Shown: positions 40,427 to 46,135 of the stretch, piece after piece
How the letters are laid out: each line of letters begins with the position of its first letter
How positions within the stretch are numbered: the stretch's first letter is position 1
Assembly: GCA_963664405.1 (NCBI GenBank)
Contig: OY761158.1
Coordinates: forward strand, 1,376,001-1,440,000
Source: Thermoanaerobaculia bacterium
GTDB taxonomy: Bacteria > Acidobacteriota > Thermoanaerobaculia > Multivoradales > Multivoraceae
Reading direction: 5' to 3'
Length of the DNA stretch: 64,000 nucleotides
Notes under the pieces: generated by a model
Database searches by the model: none
The model's input: only the letters and a program-made list of their open reading frames with translations
What the model was told of the DNA's origin: nothing
Translations under genes and position numbers: made by a program

Positions 40427-41662
40427 ATGGACTTCAACGACAGCTCTGAGGAAGCGGCATTCCGCGCCGAGGTGCGGGGTTTTCTCGACGCCAACGCAAC
40501 TCTGAAGACGAGCAGCGACGACGACATCTTCGCCGACCGCGGGGACGAGAAGGATCTCGTCCGGCGGGCACAGGAGTGGCAGCTCAAGAAAGCCGAGAAC
40601 GGCTACGCTGTCATCCATTGGCCCGAGGAGTACGGTGGCCGCAACGCATCGCCGATCCAAAGTGTGATCTTCGGCGAGGAAGAGCGCAGGTACGACGTTC
40701 CTCCAGGCGTTTTCGCCATCGGCCTCGGCATGTGCGGACCCGTGCTGATGACTTACGCTGATAAAGAGACAAAAGAGAGACTCCTCCCTGGGATGGCGAG
40801 CGGTAAAGAGATCTGGTGCCAACTCTTCTCGGAGCCGGTTGCGGGTAGCGATCTCGCTGGTCTACGCACGCGCGCCGAGCGCGACGGAGACGACTGGGTC
40901 ATCAACGGCCAGAAGGTATGGACCTCCGGCGCGCACTACTCCAAGTACGGGATTCTGGTCACGCGCCACGACCCCAGCCTGCCGAAGCACAAAGGCCTCA
41001 CCTTCTTCTGGTTGGATATGGAGAGCCCGGGAGTCGAGATCAAACCGATCAAGCAAATCTCCGGCGGCTCCAACTTCAACGAGGTTTTCTTCACCAATGT
41101 GCGCATCCCCGACTCGCAGAGGCTGGGAGAGATCGGGGAAGGTTGGCAGGTCTCTCTCACCACTCTCATGAACGAGAGGCTCGCCGTCGGCGGGGCTGGA
41201 GCGCCCGACTTCGACGACATCTTCCGGCTTGCCCGTCGTGTCGAGCTAAATGTGGCCCCGGCCGTCGTCGACGCAGGCGTGAGGAGCAAGCTGGCAGATT
41301 GGTATGTTCAGGCTGAGGGTCTCCGACTGATCAGGGCACGCACCCAAACCAAGCTCGGTCGTGGCGAGACCCCTGGCCCCGAGTCCTCGATCGGCAAAGT
41401 GGTCAGCGCCAACAAGCAGCAAGAGATTGGCTCTTTCGGAATCGACCTGCTCGAACAGACCGGCGTGCTCACCGACGGCGAGCTACAACCGGGGGACGAG
41501 CTCTTCCAGAGTGGACTCTTGGGCTCACCTGGAATGCGTATCGCTGGCGGCTCCGACGAGATCCTGCGCAACATCATCGCCGAGAGAGTCTTGATGTTGC
41601 CTGGTGACATCCGAGTCGACCGCGACGTAGCCTATTCCGACATCCCGACCGGCCAGGTCTAA
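40427..41662 (+). CDS. Acyl-CoA dehydrogenase (large subunit of the pair)
   Basis: WCQLFSEPVAGSDLA, INGQKVWTS, FNEVFF, IAGGSDEILRNIIAERVL. Confidence 0.92.
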   Translation: MDFNDSSEEAAFRAEVRGFLDANATLKTSSDDDIFADRGDEKDLVRRAQEWQLKKAENGYAVIHWPEEYGGRNASPIQSVIFGEEERRYDVPPGVFAIGLGMCGPVLMTYADKETKERLLPGMASGKEIWCQLFSEPVAGSDLAGLRTRAERDGDDWVINGQKVWTSGAHYSKYGILVTRHDPSLPKHKGLTFFWLDMESPGVEIKPIKQISGGSNFNEVFFTNVRIPDSQRLGEIGEGWQVSLTTLMNERLAVGGAGAPDFDDIFRLARRVELNVAPAVVDAGVRSKLADWYVQAEGLRLIRARTQTKLGRGETPGPESSIGKVVSANKQQEIGSFGIDLLEQTGVLTDGELQPGDELFQSGLLGSPGMRIAGGSDEILRNIIAERVLMLPGDIRVDRDVAYSDIPTGQV

Positions 41663-41719
41663 GCAACGGAAAGTTCACGTCACGCTGACACAGCAGTGGA
41701 TGCCGCCCTTAGCGCTTGC

Positions 41720-41745
41720 GCTACAGAGCGCTACAGATGCTACAG
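41720..41745 (+). promoter_or_regulatory. Three GCTACAG direct repeats just upstream of vapB (candidate operator)
   Basis: GCTACAG at 41720, 41730 and 41739; the last ends 8 bp before the ATG. Confidence 0.45.
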
Positions 41746-41752
41746 TCAGTTC

Positions 41753-42001
41753 ATGAACAAGAGCATCAGTCAGCGGGAGCTTCGCAACGACTCAGGCGCG
41801 ATTCTGCGTGAAGTCCAGGCTGGACAAACCCTAATCGTGACTCGGAACGGTACTCCGATCGCGGAGCTTCGACCCTTACCACCCCGTCGCTTCGTCCCTC
41901 GAGCGGTCATCGGCGACGCCGCGCGGCGGGCGCCCAGCATCGACGCAGCTCAGTTCCGCAGGGATCTCGACGAATCCGTGGATCACACGGTCGATGGCTG
42001 A
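41753..42001 (+). CDS. vapB: Phd/YefM-family antitoxin
   Basis: ISQRELRNDSGAILREVQAGQTLIVTRNGTPIAEL; overlaps the PIN gene. Confidence 0.88.
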   Translation: MNKSISQRELRNDSGAILREVQAGQTLIVTRNGTPIAELRPLPPRRFVPRAVIGDAARRAPSIDAAQFRRDLDESVDHTVDG

Positions 42002-42395
42002 TCCAACTCGCGGCCTACTCGACACCTCGGTAGTCATCGATCACGACCAGATCGACCCGGAGCGGCTCCCCGACGAATCGGCGATCACGGCAGTGACGCT
42101 CGCAGAGCTCGCAGCAGGCCCCCATGCCACGGCGAATGAACAAGAGCGTGCCCGACGCCAGGACAGGCTGCAGTGGGCCGCGGCCACCTTCGACCCTCTA
42201 CCCTTCGACGCCAACGCCGCTCGGACCTACGGCCGCGTCTTTGCCGCCGTCCGTGCCGCCGGTAGATCGAGTAGAAGCCGGTTCGCCGATCTCCTGATCG
42301 CGTCGACCGCTGCGGCGAACGGCCTTCCGCTATACACACGAAACCCAGCCGACCTCAAGGCACTCGAGGGCATCGTCGAGATCGTGGAGCTTTGA
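41994..42395 (+). CDS. vapC: PIN-domain toxin
   Basis: LLDTSVVI, TLAEL, DLLIASTA, LYTRNPAD. Confidence 0.92.
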   Translation: MADPTRGLLDTSVVIDHDQIDPERLPDESAITAVTLAELAAGPHATANEQERARRQDRLQWAAATFDPLPFDANAARTYGRVFAAVRAAGRSSRSRFADLLIASTAAANGLPLYTRNPADLKALEGIVEIVEL

Positions 42396-42520
42396 ACGTC
42401 GAGAAACATGGGCGGCGGCGTGAGCCCGGCTGAACCTCGACCCAAGCAAGTCTCAACGATCTGAGAACCTCCGAGCGTTCAGCCGCTGAGGAAGAAGGAG
42501 ACTCCCGCTCGTATATCCTT

Positions 42521-42680
42521 GCGCTGCCGGAGCCCCCGAGGATTAATTATTGGTCGTGACAACTGCGACCGTGTAGTGTCAATGGTCCGGCCAAGGCAGA
42601 CCATTACAGGCCTCGTAGCTCATCTCAACTGGCGCGAATGGCGCCGTCGTCGGATGGAAAATCCGGAGGGGCCTCGGCGC
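42521..42680 (+). ncRNA. Candidate retron msr/msd ncRNA
   Basis: Imperfect a1/a2-like pairing of 42521-42544 with 42660-42680; internal hairpins GGTCGT/GCGACC (42552-42570) and AATGGTC/GACCATT (42581-42605); directly upstream of a retron RT. Confidence 0.55.
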
Positions 42681-42688
42681 TTCCTGTC

Positions 42689-44444
42689 GTGAGCATCAAT
42701 TCACTGGACCGCGAGATGCGCGAGCGTTTCCTAGCTGTGGAATCGCGTGCTGAACTAGCAACGATCATCGGATTCAGTGACCGGGAGCTCTGCAACATCC
42801 TGTACGGTCGCGGCGAGCGGTCGAAATACCGCACGTTTGAGACTCCTAAAAAGAGGGGCGGCAAGAGAACTATTTCGGCACCACCACACAGGCTGCGCAA
42901 CCTGCAATCTAAGCTCGCCGATGTGCTCTACAAAGTATTTGAACCGCGAGCTTGTGTACACGGATTCGTTCGCGGTCGCAGCATCGTAACTAACGCCGAA
43001 AAAACACTGCGGGAGAAGGTACCTCTTGAATATCGATCTCGAGGACTTCTTCCCTACGATTCACCTCGGCCGAGTACGGGGCGTCTTTACGAGCCCTCCT
43101 TTCAACATGCCTCCGGCGATCGCGACTGTCATCGGGCAGATCGCCTGCGATACTGACGGCAAGCTACCGCAGGGCGCGCCGACGTCGCCCATTGTGTCGA
43201 ATCTAGTTTGCGGGCCGCTTGACACAAGCCTTCAGCGACTCGCTCAGTCGAACGGTAGCTTCTACCCACGATATGCCGACGACATGAGCTTCTCGACCAA
43301 CAGAAGCAAGTTCCCCGATGACCTCGGCCACAGGCTCCCTGGCGGTACCTTTTCCGTTGGACCGCATCTTCGGTCACTCATAGTAAGCCACGGCTTCAGA
43401 ATCAACTTCCACAAGGTGTGGCTGAGAACGAGTGCAGAACATCAGGAAGTGACGGGCCTCACGGTCAACGAGTTTCCTAACATCACGCGGCGTGTAATCA
43501 GACAAACCCGCGCGATTCTCCACAACTGGGACACTACTTCGCTGGGCCAAGCAGCGCAGGTCTTTTCTCAAAAGTGCACTTCAGGTCAACCCACCGGCGA
43601 AGATGCATTCAAGCGTTTCGTTCACGGCCGGCTTTCGTTCATTGGGATGGTCCGCGGTCCAGACGACCCGGTCTACCGTCGGCTTGCAACGAAGCTCGCG
43701 TTCATCGAAAAAAGGACGCCTCCGGACTCGGGCGGGGCGGGGCCCGCGCCGTTGCGAGGAGGGCAAGCCACGACTTCGGGGTGGCAGAGAGTATATGACC
43801 GACTCCGAGAGCACCTGTACCTGCTCCAACTGGACCACGCCCAATCGGATGAGTTTGCTGCTGACCAGCTCGGAACCGCCTTTGGCTATGAGAGAGACCT
43901 CCTGATCACGGCAGGGCACAACCTGGACGGGTTTGACGTCCGCGCGATGGATCATTCGCTTCCGGAGAACGGGATCACTCCAATCAAAGTGAAGTTTCTG
44001 AACGAGCCCCATGGCGTCGACTGTGGTCTCATAACTTTGCCTCCGAATTCGCGTCGAGGATGGCCAGGACAAATCCCAACCCAGGAGCGAATCCCGCAAG
44101 TTGGAGAGGAGGTCGCGACGATAGGGTACCCCCCCCGTTGCCCTGCAGCGGCCCTCGTTAGAAGCCTAAGAGGAGACGTTCAGTTTATCCAGGTGAACTT
44201 TCGGCAAGATCCGGGCCTCAGCGGCTCGCCGCTCGTCGACAAGCGGGGCTATGTACTCGGTATTGTCGTCGAGAATGCCCTCCAGAAGCCCAAACGCACG
44301 GGGATCGATGAAGAGGCCAGCAGCGCCTCCACTGAACATGGTCAGGTACTACCTCTTGGTTACGTGCATCGACTACGGCAAATCGATTGGGGAAGTCGAG
44401 CCGGCAGCACACTGCCGGCACCAGCGATTCCCTCGTCGGAATAG
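42689..44444 (+). CDS. Retron-type reverse transcriptase fused to a C-terminal trypsin-like serine protease; +1 frameshift at A6 run 42999-43004; start uncertain (42638, 42689 or 42716)
   Basis: KKRGGKRTISAP, HGF, NAEKH (after removing one A), DLEDFFPTI, LPQGAPTSP, YADD (43272), VTG (43449); protease TAGH, VDCGLI, GYP, GLSGSP. Confidence 0.88.
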
Positions 44445-44594
44445 CTGTGGCGTGAAACTCTATGAACACCGGGCTAGCCAAATCGCCTGGCGGCACGTGC
44501 TGAACTCTCGGAACCGAGCGCCCCGGCTGTGAGCTTCTTCGGGAGAGGAGTGCGTCCCCAGGCTTATCTGCAGACGGGTCGCGCAGCGGTCTGT

Positions 44595-45224
44595 CTAGAC
44601 CGAAGCACTCTGGCGAGTACTTACGGCCTCGTACCAGCGCTTTGTACGGCTGTGCCCGTCTTCCGGGCCGAGCTTGACCCAACCTGCGAAGTCGACGACA
44701 ACGAGTGCGGTGATATCGGCCAGCGAGAAGCTGCTGCCTGCCAAGTATTCGGAGTCGGCCAGGCGCTGGTCCAGCATAGCGAAGAACTCGACCCCCCGGG
44801 CCAGCCCGCGCTCGGCGAGCTCGGGGATCTGCTCGTAGTTTGTAGGCCCGGTAACGGCTCGCCCAGCCATTCGCTTGCTGCGATTACGCAGCGCGTCGGC
44901 GATCGGCCAGAGTCCTTCTAGCTCGACGCGTGCGTTCCAGCTCGAGACCAGTCCGCGCTCCTCAGGTGTCGTTCCCATCAGCCGGGGCTCGGGCACCATA
45001 GCTTCCAAGTAGGTCGCGATCCCGATGTTCTCGGTGAGGCAGGTCCCATCGTCGAGCTGGAGTACGGGGACGGTGCAGCGTGGGTTGATCTCTTTGAAGG
45101 TATCGGTAAGTTGCTCTCGTTGCCGGAGATTGACCTCGACGGTCTCGACAGTGAGACCTTTCTCGGCGATGAAAATGCGTGCCCGGCGCGGGCTCGGAGC
45201 CGTCTGACAGTCGTAGAACTTCAT
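44595..45224 (-). CDS. Glutathione S-transferase family protein
   Basis: APSPRRARIF, INPRCTVPVL, YLAGSSFSLADI. Confidence 0.9.
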   Translation of the reverse strand: MKFYDCQTAPSPRRARIFIAEKGLTVETVEVNLRQREQLTDTFKEINPRCTVPVLQLDDGTCLTENIGIATYLEAMVPEPRLMGTTPEERGLVSSWNARVELEGLWPIADALRNRSKRMAGRAVTGPTNYEQIPELAERGLARGVEFFAMLDQRLADSEYLAGSSFSLADITALVVVDFAGWVKLGPEDGHSRTKRWYEAVSTRQSASV

Positions 45225-45262
45225 ATGCTTCCTCCGGGAGTCGAGCCTGGCGACGCGCCGGG

Positions 45263-46135
45263 TCAAGCAGTCGCAGGCCTGTCGTGCGTTGATTTGCTCA
45301 GGATCTCGTCAAGAACAGGTTTGATCATCTGCTTGAAGAGCTCAGGGTTCTCTGACATCGGAAAGTGCCCGAGGCCCGACATGAGCTCGCACTGAGCCCC
45401 AGGAATCCGTGCCCGGATCTCCTCTAGATGAGCCGACGTACAAGCCCAGTCGTACTCGCCATTGAGCACATAAACCGCTACCCGGTCGGTCTCGATCTCT
45501 TCGACGACGTCTCGCAAATCATGGTCGATCGAGAAGTAGAAGAGATCACCCTTGAATACCGGCGGCGCTCCCTGGCTGTATACCCACGCTGTCTCCCGCT
45601 TCGCCCACTCGGGACTGGTCGGCGCCATCAGCCCATACATCATCGACGCCTTGAAGTCGTTCGATACCCGAGGGTGGTTTAGGGTGTCGATGAACCCTCC
45701 CGGCGTGAACAGAGCCGCCTCCAGACCGATGACGGCTCTGAAGCGATCCGCATGCTGGTGAGCCAGATCGAGAGCGAGATGCCCTCCTATCGAGCTCCCC
45801 ATATACACAGGGCGGTCGAGATCAAGCGCATCAGCCAGAGCCAGCGGCACCGACATCAGAAAACTCTTGGTCAGCTTGTACTCCTCGGCCCACCACTCCT
45901 CCGAGGTGGGCGGGACAGATTTGCCGTGAAAGGGAAGGTCGTAAGCGATGACCCGAAAATCTCGCGTGGTCTCACTGTCGGCGAGCAAGTGCCGCCACTG
46001 CCGCCCGTCGGCACCCGCTGTGTGTTGCAGAACTAGGGGCACACCCGAGCCGGCCTCCTCGAAGTAGACGCGATACTCGACGCCCTCGATCTCCAGGTAC
46101 ACATACCGTCCGGTGACCTCGTCGAACTTAGCCAT
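45263..46135 (-). CDS. Alpha/beta hydrolase
   Basis: HTAG, DLPFHGKS, GSSIGG nucleophile elbow, GHFPMSENP. Confidence 0.9.
   Translation of the reverse strand: MAKFDEVTGRYVYLEIEGVEYRVYFEEAGSGVPLVLQHTAGADGRQWRHLLADSETTRDFRVIAYDLPFHGKSVPPTSEEWWAEEYKLTKSFLMSVPLALADALDLDRPVYMGSSIGGHLALDLAHQHADRFRAVIGLEAALFTPGGFIDTLNHPRVSNDFKASMMYGLMAPTSPEWAKRETAWVYSQGAPPVFKGDLFYFSIDHDLRDVVEEIETDRVAVYVLNGEYDWACTSAHLEEIRARIPGAQCELMSGLGHFPMSENPELFKQMIKPVLDEILSKSTHDRPATA

What the first reader, a model, noticed from the sequence alone, without database searches (positions are those of the whole stretch)
42521..44444. Retron-like system with a built-in trypsin-like protease effector (ncRNA + RT-protease fusion)
Seen: once a single extra A is removed, one ORF of about 575-600 aa carries all the retron RT hallmarks (NAEKH region X, DLEDFFPTI, LPQGAPTSP, YADD at 43272, VTG region Y at 43449). 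A Gly/Pro-rich linker follows, then a chymotrypsin-fold domain with an apparently complete triad: His in TAGH (43917), Asp in VDCGLI, Ser in GLSGSP (44220). Known: retrons are anti-phage ncRNA-RT-effector systems. RT-protease fusions were catalogued computationally (Mestre et al. 2020; type XI as I recall), and I know of little mechanistic work on them. Inference: msDNA keeps the protease inactive until a phage protein perturbs the msDNA, releasing proteolytic abortive infection. No separate effector gene follows; the next gene is a convergent GST.
Basis: partly seen in the sequence, partly recalled or inferred. Interest (0 to 1): 0.9.

Follow-up and report, generated by a model that had tools for sequence, protein, structure and literature searches.

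The report
Broken type XI retron (RT-protease)
This is a copy of an already catalogued bacterial anti-phage element, a type XI retron (a reverse transcriptase fused to a serine protease, with a small RNA gene in front), but this copy carries a real frameshift and a deletion and is probably no longer working.

Summary
Window 42638-44444 encodes one retron reverse transcriptase fused to an HtrA/DegS-like protease, split into two frames by one extra A in the run 42999-43004. Read through, it matches PADLOC RT-Protease_XI (E 2.5e-131). It keeps NAxxH, YADD, VTG and the His/Asp/Ser triad.

It is therefore a type XI retron (Mestre 2020), a known kind. This scan has met the type before on other DNA.

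- The extra A is real. Contigs of 4 runs from 2 studies reproduce it.
- The protease lacks 11 residues, including a Gly invariant in 59 relatives.
- The upstream RNA element is weak. Of 43 relatives, 38 have a strong a1/a2 repeat just before the gene. The window has only an interrupted 16-bp closing stem. It is missed by a covariance model and an HMM built from relatives, although one post hoc motif pattern hits it.

Most likely this is a recently decayed copy, sitting next to a Phd-VapC pair. The msDNA-caged protease mechanism is inferred by analogy with retron Eco2.

The parts
42525..42679 (+). Candidate retron ncRNA (msr-msd), weakly supported
   Evidence: The MFE fold of 42524-42688 is closed by a1 42525-42544 and a2 42660-42679: 16 bp with a 1x1 and a 3x3 internal loop, z -2.14, 4 of 200 shuffles fold as well. 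The pattern ATTG..ACTGC..YAATG hits once in the window, at 42549-42584, against 0.01 expected; the pattern was widened post hoc. It aligns colinearly with the ncRNAs of 8 relatives. Against it: CM R2 gives no hit here even with filters off, nhmmer gives none and Rfam gives none.
42552..42570 (+). Stem-loop 1 of the candidate ncRNA (GGTCG / CGACC stem, loop containing ACTG)
   Evidence: It corresponds to the conserved stem-loop with a ..TACTGC.. loop seen in relatives.
42545..42545 (+). A at the position that aligns with the invariant G after the a1 stem in relatives (the likely priming G); the alternative candidate is G42552
   Evidence: T-T-G is invariant in 16 of 16 relatives. MAFFT places the window's GGATTA under the relatives' GGATTG, offset by one column. 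The spacing to ACTGC is 16 nt from 42545 and 9 nt from 42552, against 15 nt in six relatives (L095, L017, L105, L025, L032, L051) and 14 nt in L038, counted by me on the sequences. The assignment is ambiguous.
42638..43004 (+). 5' part of the RT-protease gene (RT N-terminus up to region X, NAEK) in frame 1; the true start may be GTG 42689 or ATG 42716
   Evidence: The PADLOC match begins at residue 31 of the read-through, and relatives start about 10-15 residues before that.
42999..43004 (+). A6 run holding the one-base frame change (+1) inside region X
   Evidence: Contigs of runs X1, X3, X4 and X6 cover it with 0 differences and 0 gaps.
43005..44444 (+). 3' part of the RT-protease gene in the second frame: RT palm and thumb (YADD 43272-43283, VTG 43449-43457), linker, protease domain, stop
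43872..44264 (+). HtrA/DegS-like chymotrypsin-fold protease domain; His 43917-43919, Asp 44019-44021, Ser 44220-44222
   Evidence: Pfam Trypsin_2 over 412-542. The triad falls in invariant columns. Foldseek matches DegS, Rv3671c and HtrA1 with TM by target length 0.62-0.70.
44136..44150 (+). Junction of an 11-residue in-frame deletion in the protease (residues RCPAA), directly after the C8 run 44129-44136
   Evidence: The segment from IG[YF]P to IQVSF is 28 aa here, 38-40 aa in 58 of 59 relatives and 36 aa in one. A Gly invariant in those 59 is lost. pLDDT is below 50 at residues 370-374 of the model. The missing part lies in loop 482-490 and strand 491-502 of the intact relative's model.
41696..42395 (+). 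Neighbouring Phd/YefM antitoxin (41696-42001) and VapC PIN toxin (41994-42395); context, not shown to be part of the retron

Best explanation
The locus is a type XI retron. A small structured RNA gene (about 42525-42679) is followed by one gene for a clade-8 retron reverse transcriptase fused through a Gly/Pro-rich linker to an HtrA/DegS-like serine protease.

How working members probably act (inferred, not shown for any type XI):
- The RT copies part of the RNA into msDNA, primed from a G next to the a1/a2 stem.
- The RT-msDNA complex holds the fused protease inactive.
- Phage-caused damage to the msDNA frees the protease, which cuts cell or phage proteins and aborts the infection.

This particular copy is most likely inactive, or nearly so. 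Two lesions support that view:
- One extra A in the run 42999-43004 breaks the frame inside region X of the RT.
- The protease has lost 11 residues of its C-terminal beta-barrel.

The a1/a2 stem is also interrupted, and the position of the priming G may hold an A. The rest of the gene is still open and all catalytic residues are kept, so the decay is recent.
For: Identity:
- PADLOC RT-Protease_XI E 2.5e-131 over 31-549; next best are RT-TIR_XII and RT-Toprim_I-C, the other clade-8 types.
- The closest solved structure is the retron Ec67/Eco2 RT, phmmer E 1.9e-57 and Foldseek E 6e-14.
- The protease model matches DegS, Rv3671c and HtrA1.
- Of the 119 listed homologue clusters other than the window's own, 99 carry both PF00078 and PF13365.

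Broken state:
- The two frames are seen.
- Contigs of 4 runs (4 samples, 2 studies) cover 42400-44500 or the A run with 0 differences and 0 gaps.
- All 43 RT-protease relatives fetched have RT and protease in one open frame, with the RT match starting at profile position 2-38.
- The deletion is seen only in the window, among the window plus 59 relatives. It removes a Gly invariant in those 59 and part of a 12-residue strand of the intact relative's model. The junction has pLDDT below 50.

ncRNA:
- In 38 of 43 relatives the best long-range inverted repeat ends within -40 to +70 nt of the RT start, against 14 of 88 shuffles. Its score exceeds the shuffled 95th percentile in 24 of 43.
- In 11 relatives the a1/a2 and stem-loop 1 pairs covary: 17 of 19 pairs change on both sides, 85.7% of cells are paired against 67.5% when shuffled and 39-50% when slid (that alignment was fitted to the model).
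- The window's stem at the homologous place scores 22.5 by my hand count with the scoring, below the shuffled median of 25.5.

Mechanism by analogy: in Eco2, of the same RT clade, msDNA cages the fused effector and the phage nuclease DenB releases it (PMC12916289, abstract).
Against: - Apart from the one base, both frames are open and every catalytic and family-invariant residue other than the lost Gly is kept. The gene could therefore still be used.
- A +1 slip of tRNA-Lys on the A run (AAA 43001-43003 to AAA 43002-43004) would give exactly the conserved NAEKH. This follows from the sequence.
- AlphaFold still models the shortened protease with a mean pLDDT of 86 for the whole ORF.
- One relative (P0117) has a segment 2-4 residues shorter than the others in the same region, so some length change is tolerated there.
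- The RNA still folds with a closing stem.
- No relative closer than 65% identity could be read as DNA, so neither the normal ncRNA nor the normal loop length of this sub-clade is known.
- The library type of the runs is not on record.
- No type XI retron has a demonstrated defence phenotype or protease target in the papers searched.
Confidence: 0.7

Rival explanations
1. The retron is functional. The A6 run is a recoding or phase-variation site: +1 ribosomal slippage, or loss of an A during transcription or replication, lets a small controlled amount of the toxic RT-protease be made.
For: A +1 slip on the A run restores exactly the family motif NAEKH. The rest of the gene is intact. The same allele was found in samples dated 2023-2025. 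Earlier notes of this scan report two other type XI copies with a one-base break, though those breaks lie between RT and protease; one such split locus, L040, is in my own set.
Against: None of the 43 fused relatives has a break in the RT, so it is not a family feature. From general knowledge, six A is short for efficient transcriptional or ribosomal slippage. The protease deletion and the weak a1/a2 stem point to decay and not to regulation. No RNA or protein data exist for the locus.
Confidence: 0.1
2. The frameshift is a sequencing or assembly error, and the organism has an intact type XI retron.
For: The break lies in a homopolymer. The genome is a single 6.78-Mb contig, which suggests a long-read assembly.
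Against: Contigs built independently from 4 runs of 4 samples in 2 studies agree with the window base for base over the A run. One of these runs may be the source of the assembly, but the others are not. The protease deletion is a 33-base difference, not a homopolymer slip.
Confidence: 0.07
3. The two pieces work apart. The 472-aa frame from TTG 43026, or a shorter product, acts as a stand-alone protease, or associates with the N-terminal fragment.
For: The 472-aa ORF is called as a protein in public data (P0003). Two relatives have RT and protease as separate ORFs (L040 and L096).
Against: The break lies inside the RT fingers/region X, not at a domain border. The second piece would begin in the middle of the RT fold, at profile position 72 of 205 of RVT_1. 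The split relatives are divided at the domain junction.
Confidence: 0.05
4. It is not a retron but another RT class (group II intron, DGR, Abi/UG) that happens to carry a protease.
For: No msDNA has been shown. Rfam finds no msr.
Against: Retron models score 150-437 bits, against 46 for the group II intron RT and 28.5 for Drt2. NAxxH and VTG are present. The nearest solved structures are retron RTs.
Confidence: 0.02

Closest known systems
Type XI retrons (Mestre et al. 2020, NAR, PMC7736814; PADLOC model RT-Protease_XI, 'single gene')
   Same: [quoted passage not shown] The model match is nearly full-length.
   Different: This copy has a frameshift in the RT, an 11-residue deletion in the protease and a weak a1/a2 stem. 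It lies in a phylum where only 1 of 400 other genomes sampled had even an RT-level match.
Retron Eco2 / Ec67 (type I-C1; structures 9i2f, 9lm3; PMC12916289)
   Same: The same RT clade and the best structural and sequence match for the RT part. It is also a single RT-effector fusion protein with an upstream ncRNA. It is the source of the caged-effector model.
   Different: The effector is a TOPRIM nuclease that cuts tRNA, not a protease. Its msDNA, trimer and trigger (DenB) are shown experimentally; nothing comparable is shown for type XI.
Type XII retrons (RT-TIR; NCBIfam NF042941)
   Same: The RT part is closely related: PADLOC 391 bits and NCBIfam 335 bits over 38-359.
   Different: The C-terminal domain is TIR. 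The NCBIfam score is below the family cut-off of 600.
[quoted passage not shown]
   Same: The same broad RT clade, with an upstream ncRNA flanked by a1/a2.
   Different: Those lineages lack the protease and carry WYL or DnaB_C partners. The window has the canonical protease fusion.
HtrA/DegS/Rv3671c (MarP) family serine proteases
   Same: The fold and the His-Asp-Ser triad of the C-terminal domain.
   Different: There is no PDZ domain or signal sequence. The domain is fused to an RT, shares only 15-18% identity, and lacks part of one barrel strand.

Membership tests
Type XI retron | RT of the retron clade (clade 8) with region X NAxxH, YADD and region Y VTG | tested here: met
   The motifs fall in invariant columns. 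The best PADLOC models are XI, XII and I-C. The nearest solved structure is Ec67. No tree was built.
Type XI retron | Trypsin-like serine protease domain C-terminal to the RT, with a catalytic triad | tested here: met
   Trypsin_2 over 412-542. H427, D461 and S528 are invariant. The fold is DegS/HtrA-like. The domain is, however, 11 residues short.
Type XI retron | RT and protease encoded as one uninterrupted ORF ('single gene') | tested here: not met
   There are two frames, 42638-43156 and 43026-44444. The extra A is confirmed in contigs of 4 runs. The locus is therefore filed as a broken member.
Type XI retron | Full-length match to the family profile | tested here: met
   PDLC02960 E 2.5e-131, residues 31-549 against 3-488 of 506, on the read-through translation. 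In the genome itself the match falls into two pieces.
Retron (any type) | Adjacent ncRNA with an a1/a2 inverted repeat and a priming G | tested here: inconclusive
   For: an interrupted 16-bp closing stem, one pattern hit and a colinear alignment. Against: no hit with CM R2, nhmmer or Rfam. The base at the aligned priming position may be an A.
Retron (any type) | Production of msDNA | not testable with these tools
   No RNA or DNA-product data exist; no RNA run holds the locus.
Retron (any type) | Anti-phage defence | not testable with these tools
   No experiment on a type XI retron's defence was found in the paper searches.

The most novel reading that the evidence does not exclude
The A6 run inside region X is a deliberate +1 recoding or phase switch. 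tRNA-Lys slipping from AAA 43001-43003 to AAA 43002-43004 gives exactly the conserved NAEKH, so the cell would make only a trickle of a toxic RT-protease, or would switch it on in a subpopulation. The shortened protease and the interrupted a1/a2 stem would then be features of a working sub-clade.

Separately, the 43 relatives show that canonical protease-fused type XI retrons do have a conserved ncRNA: a1, ATTG, a stem-loop with a TACTGC loop, CAATG, GAAT and a2. The two computational surveys read here did not model it.
Probability: 0.07. Interest if true: 0.55.

Novelty: new member of a known kind. Interest (0 to 1): 0.22.

Why it matters
Type XI retrons are catalogued, but how their fused protease is controlled, and what it cuts, is unstudied in the literature searched. 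Any clean example is therefore a possible entry point. This copy is a poor one, because it is frameshifted, has lost a strand of the protease and has a weak template RNA.

Two by-products may be useful:
- Canonical protease-fused type XI loci do carry a recognisable, covarying ncRNA directly upstream of the gene (38 of 43 loci by repeat position; 11 loci by a covariance model). Two computational surveys reported this as not found for the canonical form.
- Broken copies of this self-contained toxic fusion recur: here, in locus L040, and in two earlier notes of this scan. That fits a cost of carrying it.

Tried and rejected
- Rfam scan of 41500-45000 at E up to 10: only two chance-level hits, none in the leader.
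- Covariance models of the relatives' ncRNA: R1 from 6 seeds and R2 from 11 sequences. R2 finds 11 relatives at E 7e-14 or better, all directly upstream of the RT. It gives no match at 42525-42684 in window 41000-46000 with filters off at E up to 10.
- The same model also misses the G+C-richer relatives L024, L032 and L038, and scores L025 and L051 only at E 0.11 and 0.76. The miss in the window may therefore reflect the model's narrow, A+T-rich base.
- Alignment A9 held mostly spurious rows and was not used. The third model slot was left unused. One search repeated with a cut-off that still let one spurious row in, and one search corrected that.
- nhmmer with a 17-sequence profile of the 5' motif: no hit in the leader among hits up to E 100.
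- The ungapped inverted-repeat scan puts the window's best repeat elsewhere (42413-42424 with 42518-42529, score 27.5), within the range of shuffles. I do not read that repeat as the retron's stem, because the conserved motifs lie outside it.
- No RNA holder was listed for the locus.
- Promoter and terminator scan of 42300-44700: no promoter-like site, and 2 terminator-like sites against 2.0 expected.
- Synteny: the two acyl-CoA dehydrogenase genes upstream are paired in 14 of 14 family loci read, but none of those loci has the TA pair, the retron or the GST in the 1.5 kb downstream. The edges of an insertion could therefore not be set.
- DNA of the closest homologues (P0004 and P0005, 64-65% identity) could not be fetched.
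- The search of earlier findings by place returned nothing.
- Not run: complex prediction, the search of protein representatives, the protein-atlas search and an RT phylogeny.
- Supplementary tables of Mestre 2020, Khan 2024 and Toro 2026, which may list type XI ncRNAs and tested members, could not be seen.
Full report
WHAT IS THERE

Between a Phd/YefM-VapC toxin-antitoxin pair (41696-42395) and a convergent glutathione S-transferase gene (44595-45266, minus strand) lie two overlapping open frames on the plus strand: 42638-43156 (172 aa) and 43026-44444 (472 aa). The second frame is +1 relative to the first. Reading through the run of six A at 42999-43004, with one base skipped, gives a single 590-residue reading, P0002 (the last 11 residues were left off for a technical reason).

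That reading contains ...VTNAEKHCGRRYLLNIDLEDFFPTI..., LPQGAPTSP, YADD (43272), VTG (43449), a Gly/Pro-rich linker, and a protease domain with His in TAGH (43917), Asp in VDCGLI (44019) and Ser in GLSGSP (44220).

WHAT IT IS

PADLOC's model RT-Protease_XI matches residues 31-549 against profile positions 3-488 of 506 at E 2.5e-131. The next best models are RT-TIR_XII and RT-Toprim_I-C. Those are the three C-terminal fusions that Mestre et al. 2020 place in RT clade 8 (PMC7736814, passages read).

- Pfam gives RVT_1 (70-275) and Trypsin_2 (412-542).
- NCBIfam's retron models score 172-335 bits, against 46 for the group II intron RT and 28.5 for Drt2.
- The nearest solved structure by sequence is the retron Ec67/Eco2 protein, E 1.9e-57.
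- An AlphaFold model of the 472-aa frame (mean pLDDT 86.4) matches Eco2 for the RT part and DegS, Rv3671c and HtrA1 for the C-terminal part, with TM by target length 0.62-0.70.
- Of the 119 listed homologue clusters other than the window's own ORF, 99 carry both PF00078 and PF13365. The closest are 65% and 64% identical.
- In an alignment with 31 relatives, the RT motifs and the His, Asp and Ser fall in invariant columns.

This is a canonical type XI retron gene.

THE GENE IS BROKEN, AND THE BREAK IS REAL

The own genome is one 6.78-Mb contig. It holds this single locus, and the family profile matches it in two pieces. Seven public runs from two studies hold the stretch. I laid the contigs of four of them, from four samples. 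Three carry the whole of 42400-44500 in one piece, and the fourth covers 42713-43885. All show 0 differences and 0 gaps. One of these runs may be the source of the assembly, and their library type is not on record. Even so, the extra A is not a slip of one assembly.

All 43 RT-protease relatives fetched from genome and metagenome contigs have RT and protease in one open frame, with the RT match beginning at profile position 2-38. Two further loci have the protease in a separate ORF: L040 is split at the domain junction, and L096 has a protease ORF upstream. None is broken inside the RT.

A SECOND LESION

Between the conserved IG[YF]P and IQVSF of the protease, the window has 28 residues. Of 59 relatives, 58 have 38-40 residues and one has 36. 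The 11 missing residues include a Gly that is invariant in those 59 (G495 of P0004). In the high-confidence model of the intact relative P0004 (pLDDT 92.4), the missing part lies in loop 482-490 and the long strand 491-502 of the C-terminal barrel. In the window's model the junction (residues 370-374) has pLDDT below 50. The junction lies directly after a run of eight C (44129-44136). The catalytic triad itself is intact.

THE RNA GENE

Mestre et al. wrote that type XI lacks a recognisable ncRNA. Toro 2026 found candidate ncRNAs only for protease-less type XI-like lineages (PMC13712802, section 16 read in full). Khan et al. 2024 state that their RT-DNA-validated ncRNAs include clade 8, type XI (preprint 10.1101/2024.01.25.577267, passages); I could not see their supplements.

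In the 43 relatives:
- The best-scoring long-range inverted repeat spans 100-200 nt and ends within -40 to +70 nt of the RT start in 38 loci, against 14 of 88 dinucleotide shuffles. Its score exceeds the shuffled 95th percentile in 24 of 43.
- A large sub-group shares this order of elements: a1, ATTG, about five bases, a stem-loop with a ..TACTGC.. loop, about ten bases, CAATG, a variable middle, GAAGGTTGAAT, a2.
- A covariance model from six of these found five more, and the rebuilt model found all 11 at E 7e-14 or better, each directly upstream of its RT.
- On the 11-sequence alignment, 17 of 19 pairs show changes on both sides. 85.7% of cells are paired, against 67.5% in shuffles and 39-50% when partners are slid. 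That alignment was fitted to the model, which favours the structure. In the plain MAFFT alignment of the six seeds, 9 of 13 a1/a2 pairs already had compensatory changes.
- Other sub-clades have different motifs after a1.

In the window the picture is weaker. Evidence for an ncRNA:
- The 165-nt stretch 42524-42688 folds with a closing stem a1 42525-42544 / a2 42660-42679: 16 pairs, interrupted by a 1x1 and a 3x3 internal loop, z -2.14, with 4 of 200 shuffles folding as well.
- The stem ends about 20 nt before the RT's conserved N-terminus, as in relatives.
- It encloses a stem-loop (42552-42570) with an ACTG-containing loop, followed by CAATG.
- The pattern ATTG, 0-16 bases, ACTGC, 9-15 bases, YAATG occurs once in the 64-kb window, exactly here (42549-42584), against 0.01 expected. 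I widened the first gap after seeing the window, so this is post hoc.
- MAFFT aligns the region colinearly with eight relatives.

Evidence against:
- Model R2 gives no match here even with filters off. The same model also misses three G+C-richer relatives.
- An nhmmer profile of the 5' motif and Rfam find nothing.
- In a 305-nt context the closing stem is not in the minimum-energy fold.
- An ungapped score of the homologous stem is 22.5 (my hand count with the scoring), below the shuffled median of 25.5.

The G that is invariant in 16 of 16 relatives right after the a1 stem is the likely priming G, by analogy with G15 of Eco2. It aligns either with A42545 or with G42552:
- A42545 is favoured by adjacency to the GGATT/AATCC stem end, by the MAFFT alignment, and by a 16-nt spacing to ACTGC, against 15 nt in six relatives and 14 nt in L038 (my count on the sequences).
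- G42552 lies in an ATTG, but with a 9-nt spacing.

I cannot decide between them. If it is A42545, the RNA has lost its priming base.

HOW IT WORKS

Shown here: the domain composition, the retained catalytic residues, the two lesions, and the family-wide RNA element in relatives.

Inferred: msDNA synthesis and the role of the protease. The best guide is Eco2, a single-protein RT-effector fusion of the same clade. There a branched msDNA scaffold cages the effector in a trimer, and the phage nuclease DenB starts msDNA decay, which unblocks the effector (PMC12916289, abstract). A type XI retron plausibly holds its HtrA-like protease in the same way.

For this copy, the most economical reading is recent inactivation: a frameshift and a deletion in the protein, possibly with erosion of the RNA. 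I put that at about 0.7.

The main rival is low-level expression by a +1 slip on the A run, which would restore exactly NAEKH. It cannot be excluded, but it is not a feature of any relative.

CONTEXT

- G+C is 0.56-0.59 over the element, against 0.61-0.65 in the flanks.
- With P0002 as query, no match was found in 36 genomes of the same family. One of 24 in the same order matched, in the RT part only.
- In an even sample of the phylum, 1 of 400 other genomes matched, again in the RT part only.
- The element is therefore rare among the genomes searched and was probably acquired horizontally, together with or next to the TA pair. The edges could not be set.

COMPARISON AND VERDICT

It is the same as type XI in RT clade, fusion partner, gene order and profile match. 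It differs in being broken and shortened. Earlier notes of this scan describe five other type XI copies, two of them with one-base breaks; I did not check those notes.

Novelty: a new, degraded member of a known kind. Interest is low. The only points of wider use are the family-level ncRNA consensus for canonical type XI and the recurrence of broken copies.

Noticed in passing
window 41696-42395: A Phd/YefM antitoxin (TIGR01552 E 2e-07; PF02604) and a VapC PIN toxin (PF01850 E 3.6e-10) overlap by 8 bases and lie directly upstream of the retron leader. Together with the retron they form a small toxin/defence islet between metabolic genes.
   Followed up: partly
window 42427-42435 with 42477-42485: A perfect 9-bp inverted repeat (41-nt loop) sits just after the vapC stop, upstream of the retron leader. 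It may be a terminator-like or regulatory hairpin. The window's best ungapped long-range repeat (42413-42424 with 42518-42529) brackets it.
   Followed up: no
window 44129-44136: A run of eight C lies directly before the junction of the 11-residue protease deletion. In another frame the next bases read PPVA..., which resembles the relatives' sequence at that spot, so the deletion may have come with a local frame change.
   Followed up: partly
own genome G000:C1 2677472-2680759, 3047822-3049612, 6397799-6399589: Three clusters of RT-like frames give weak matches to the RT part of the profile (E 3e-12 to 2e-06). Two of the clusters have identical scores, suggesting a repeated RT-bearing element such as a group II intron.
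   Followed up: no
loci L047, L129, L134, L135, L140, L044; L048, L122, L142; L028, L116, L108, L133: Other sub-clades of RT-protease retrons have their own conserved leaders. Examples are a1 ending ..CCCCTC followed by GCATAC, a1 ending ..AATC followed by AACCAAGTGTTG, and a1 followed by ..ATTTAACTT. The type XI ncRNA is therefore several families, not one.
   Followed up: partly
L040 2941-4570; L096 1837-4035: L040 (a Parcubacteria-group MAG) has RT and protease in two overlapping frames, split at the domain junction. L096 has a protease-like ORF upstream of a 375-aa RT ORF on the same strand.
   Followed up: no
L109 698-739: The ncRNA motif pattern also hits upstream of an RT on a short metagenome contig (2156 nt) that ends before any C-terminal domain could be seen.
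   Followed up: no
L172 (G219:C32:21903-22901): The only other match in the 400-genome phylum sample is a 550-aa frame whose RT part is 43% identical to the window's. Its C-terminal domain was not examined.
   Followed up: no
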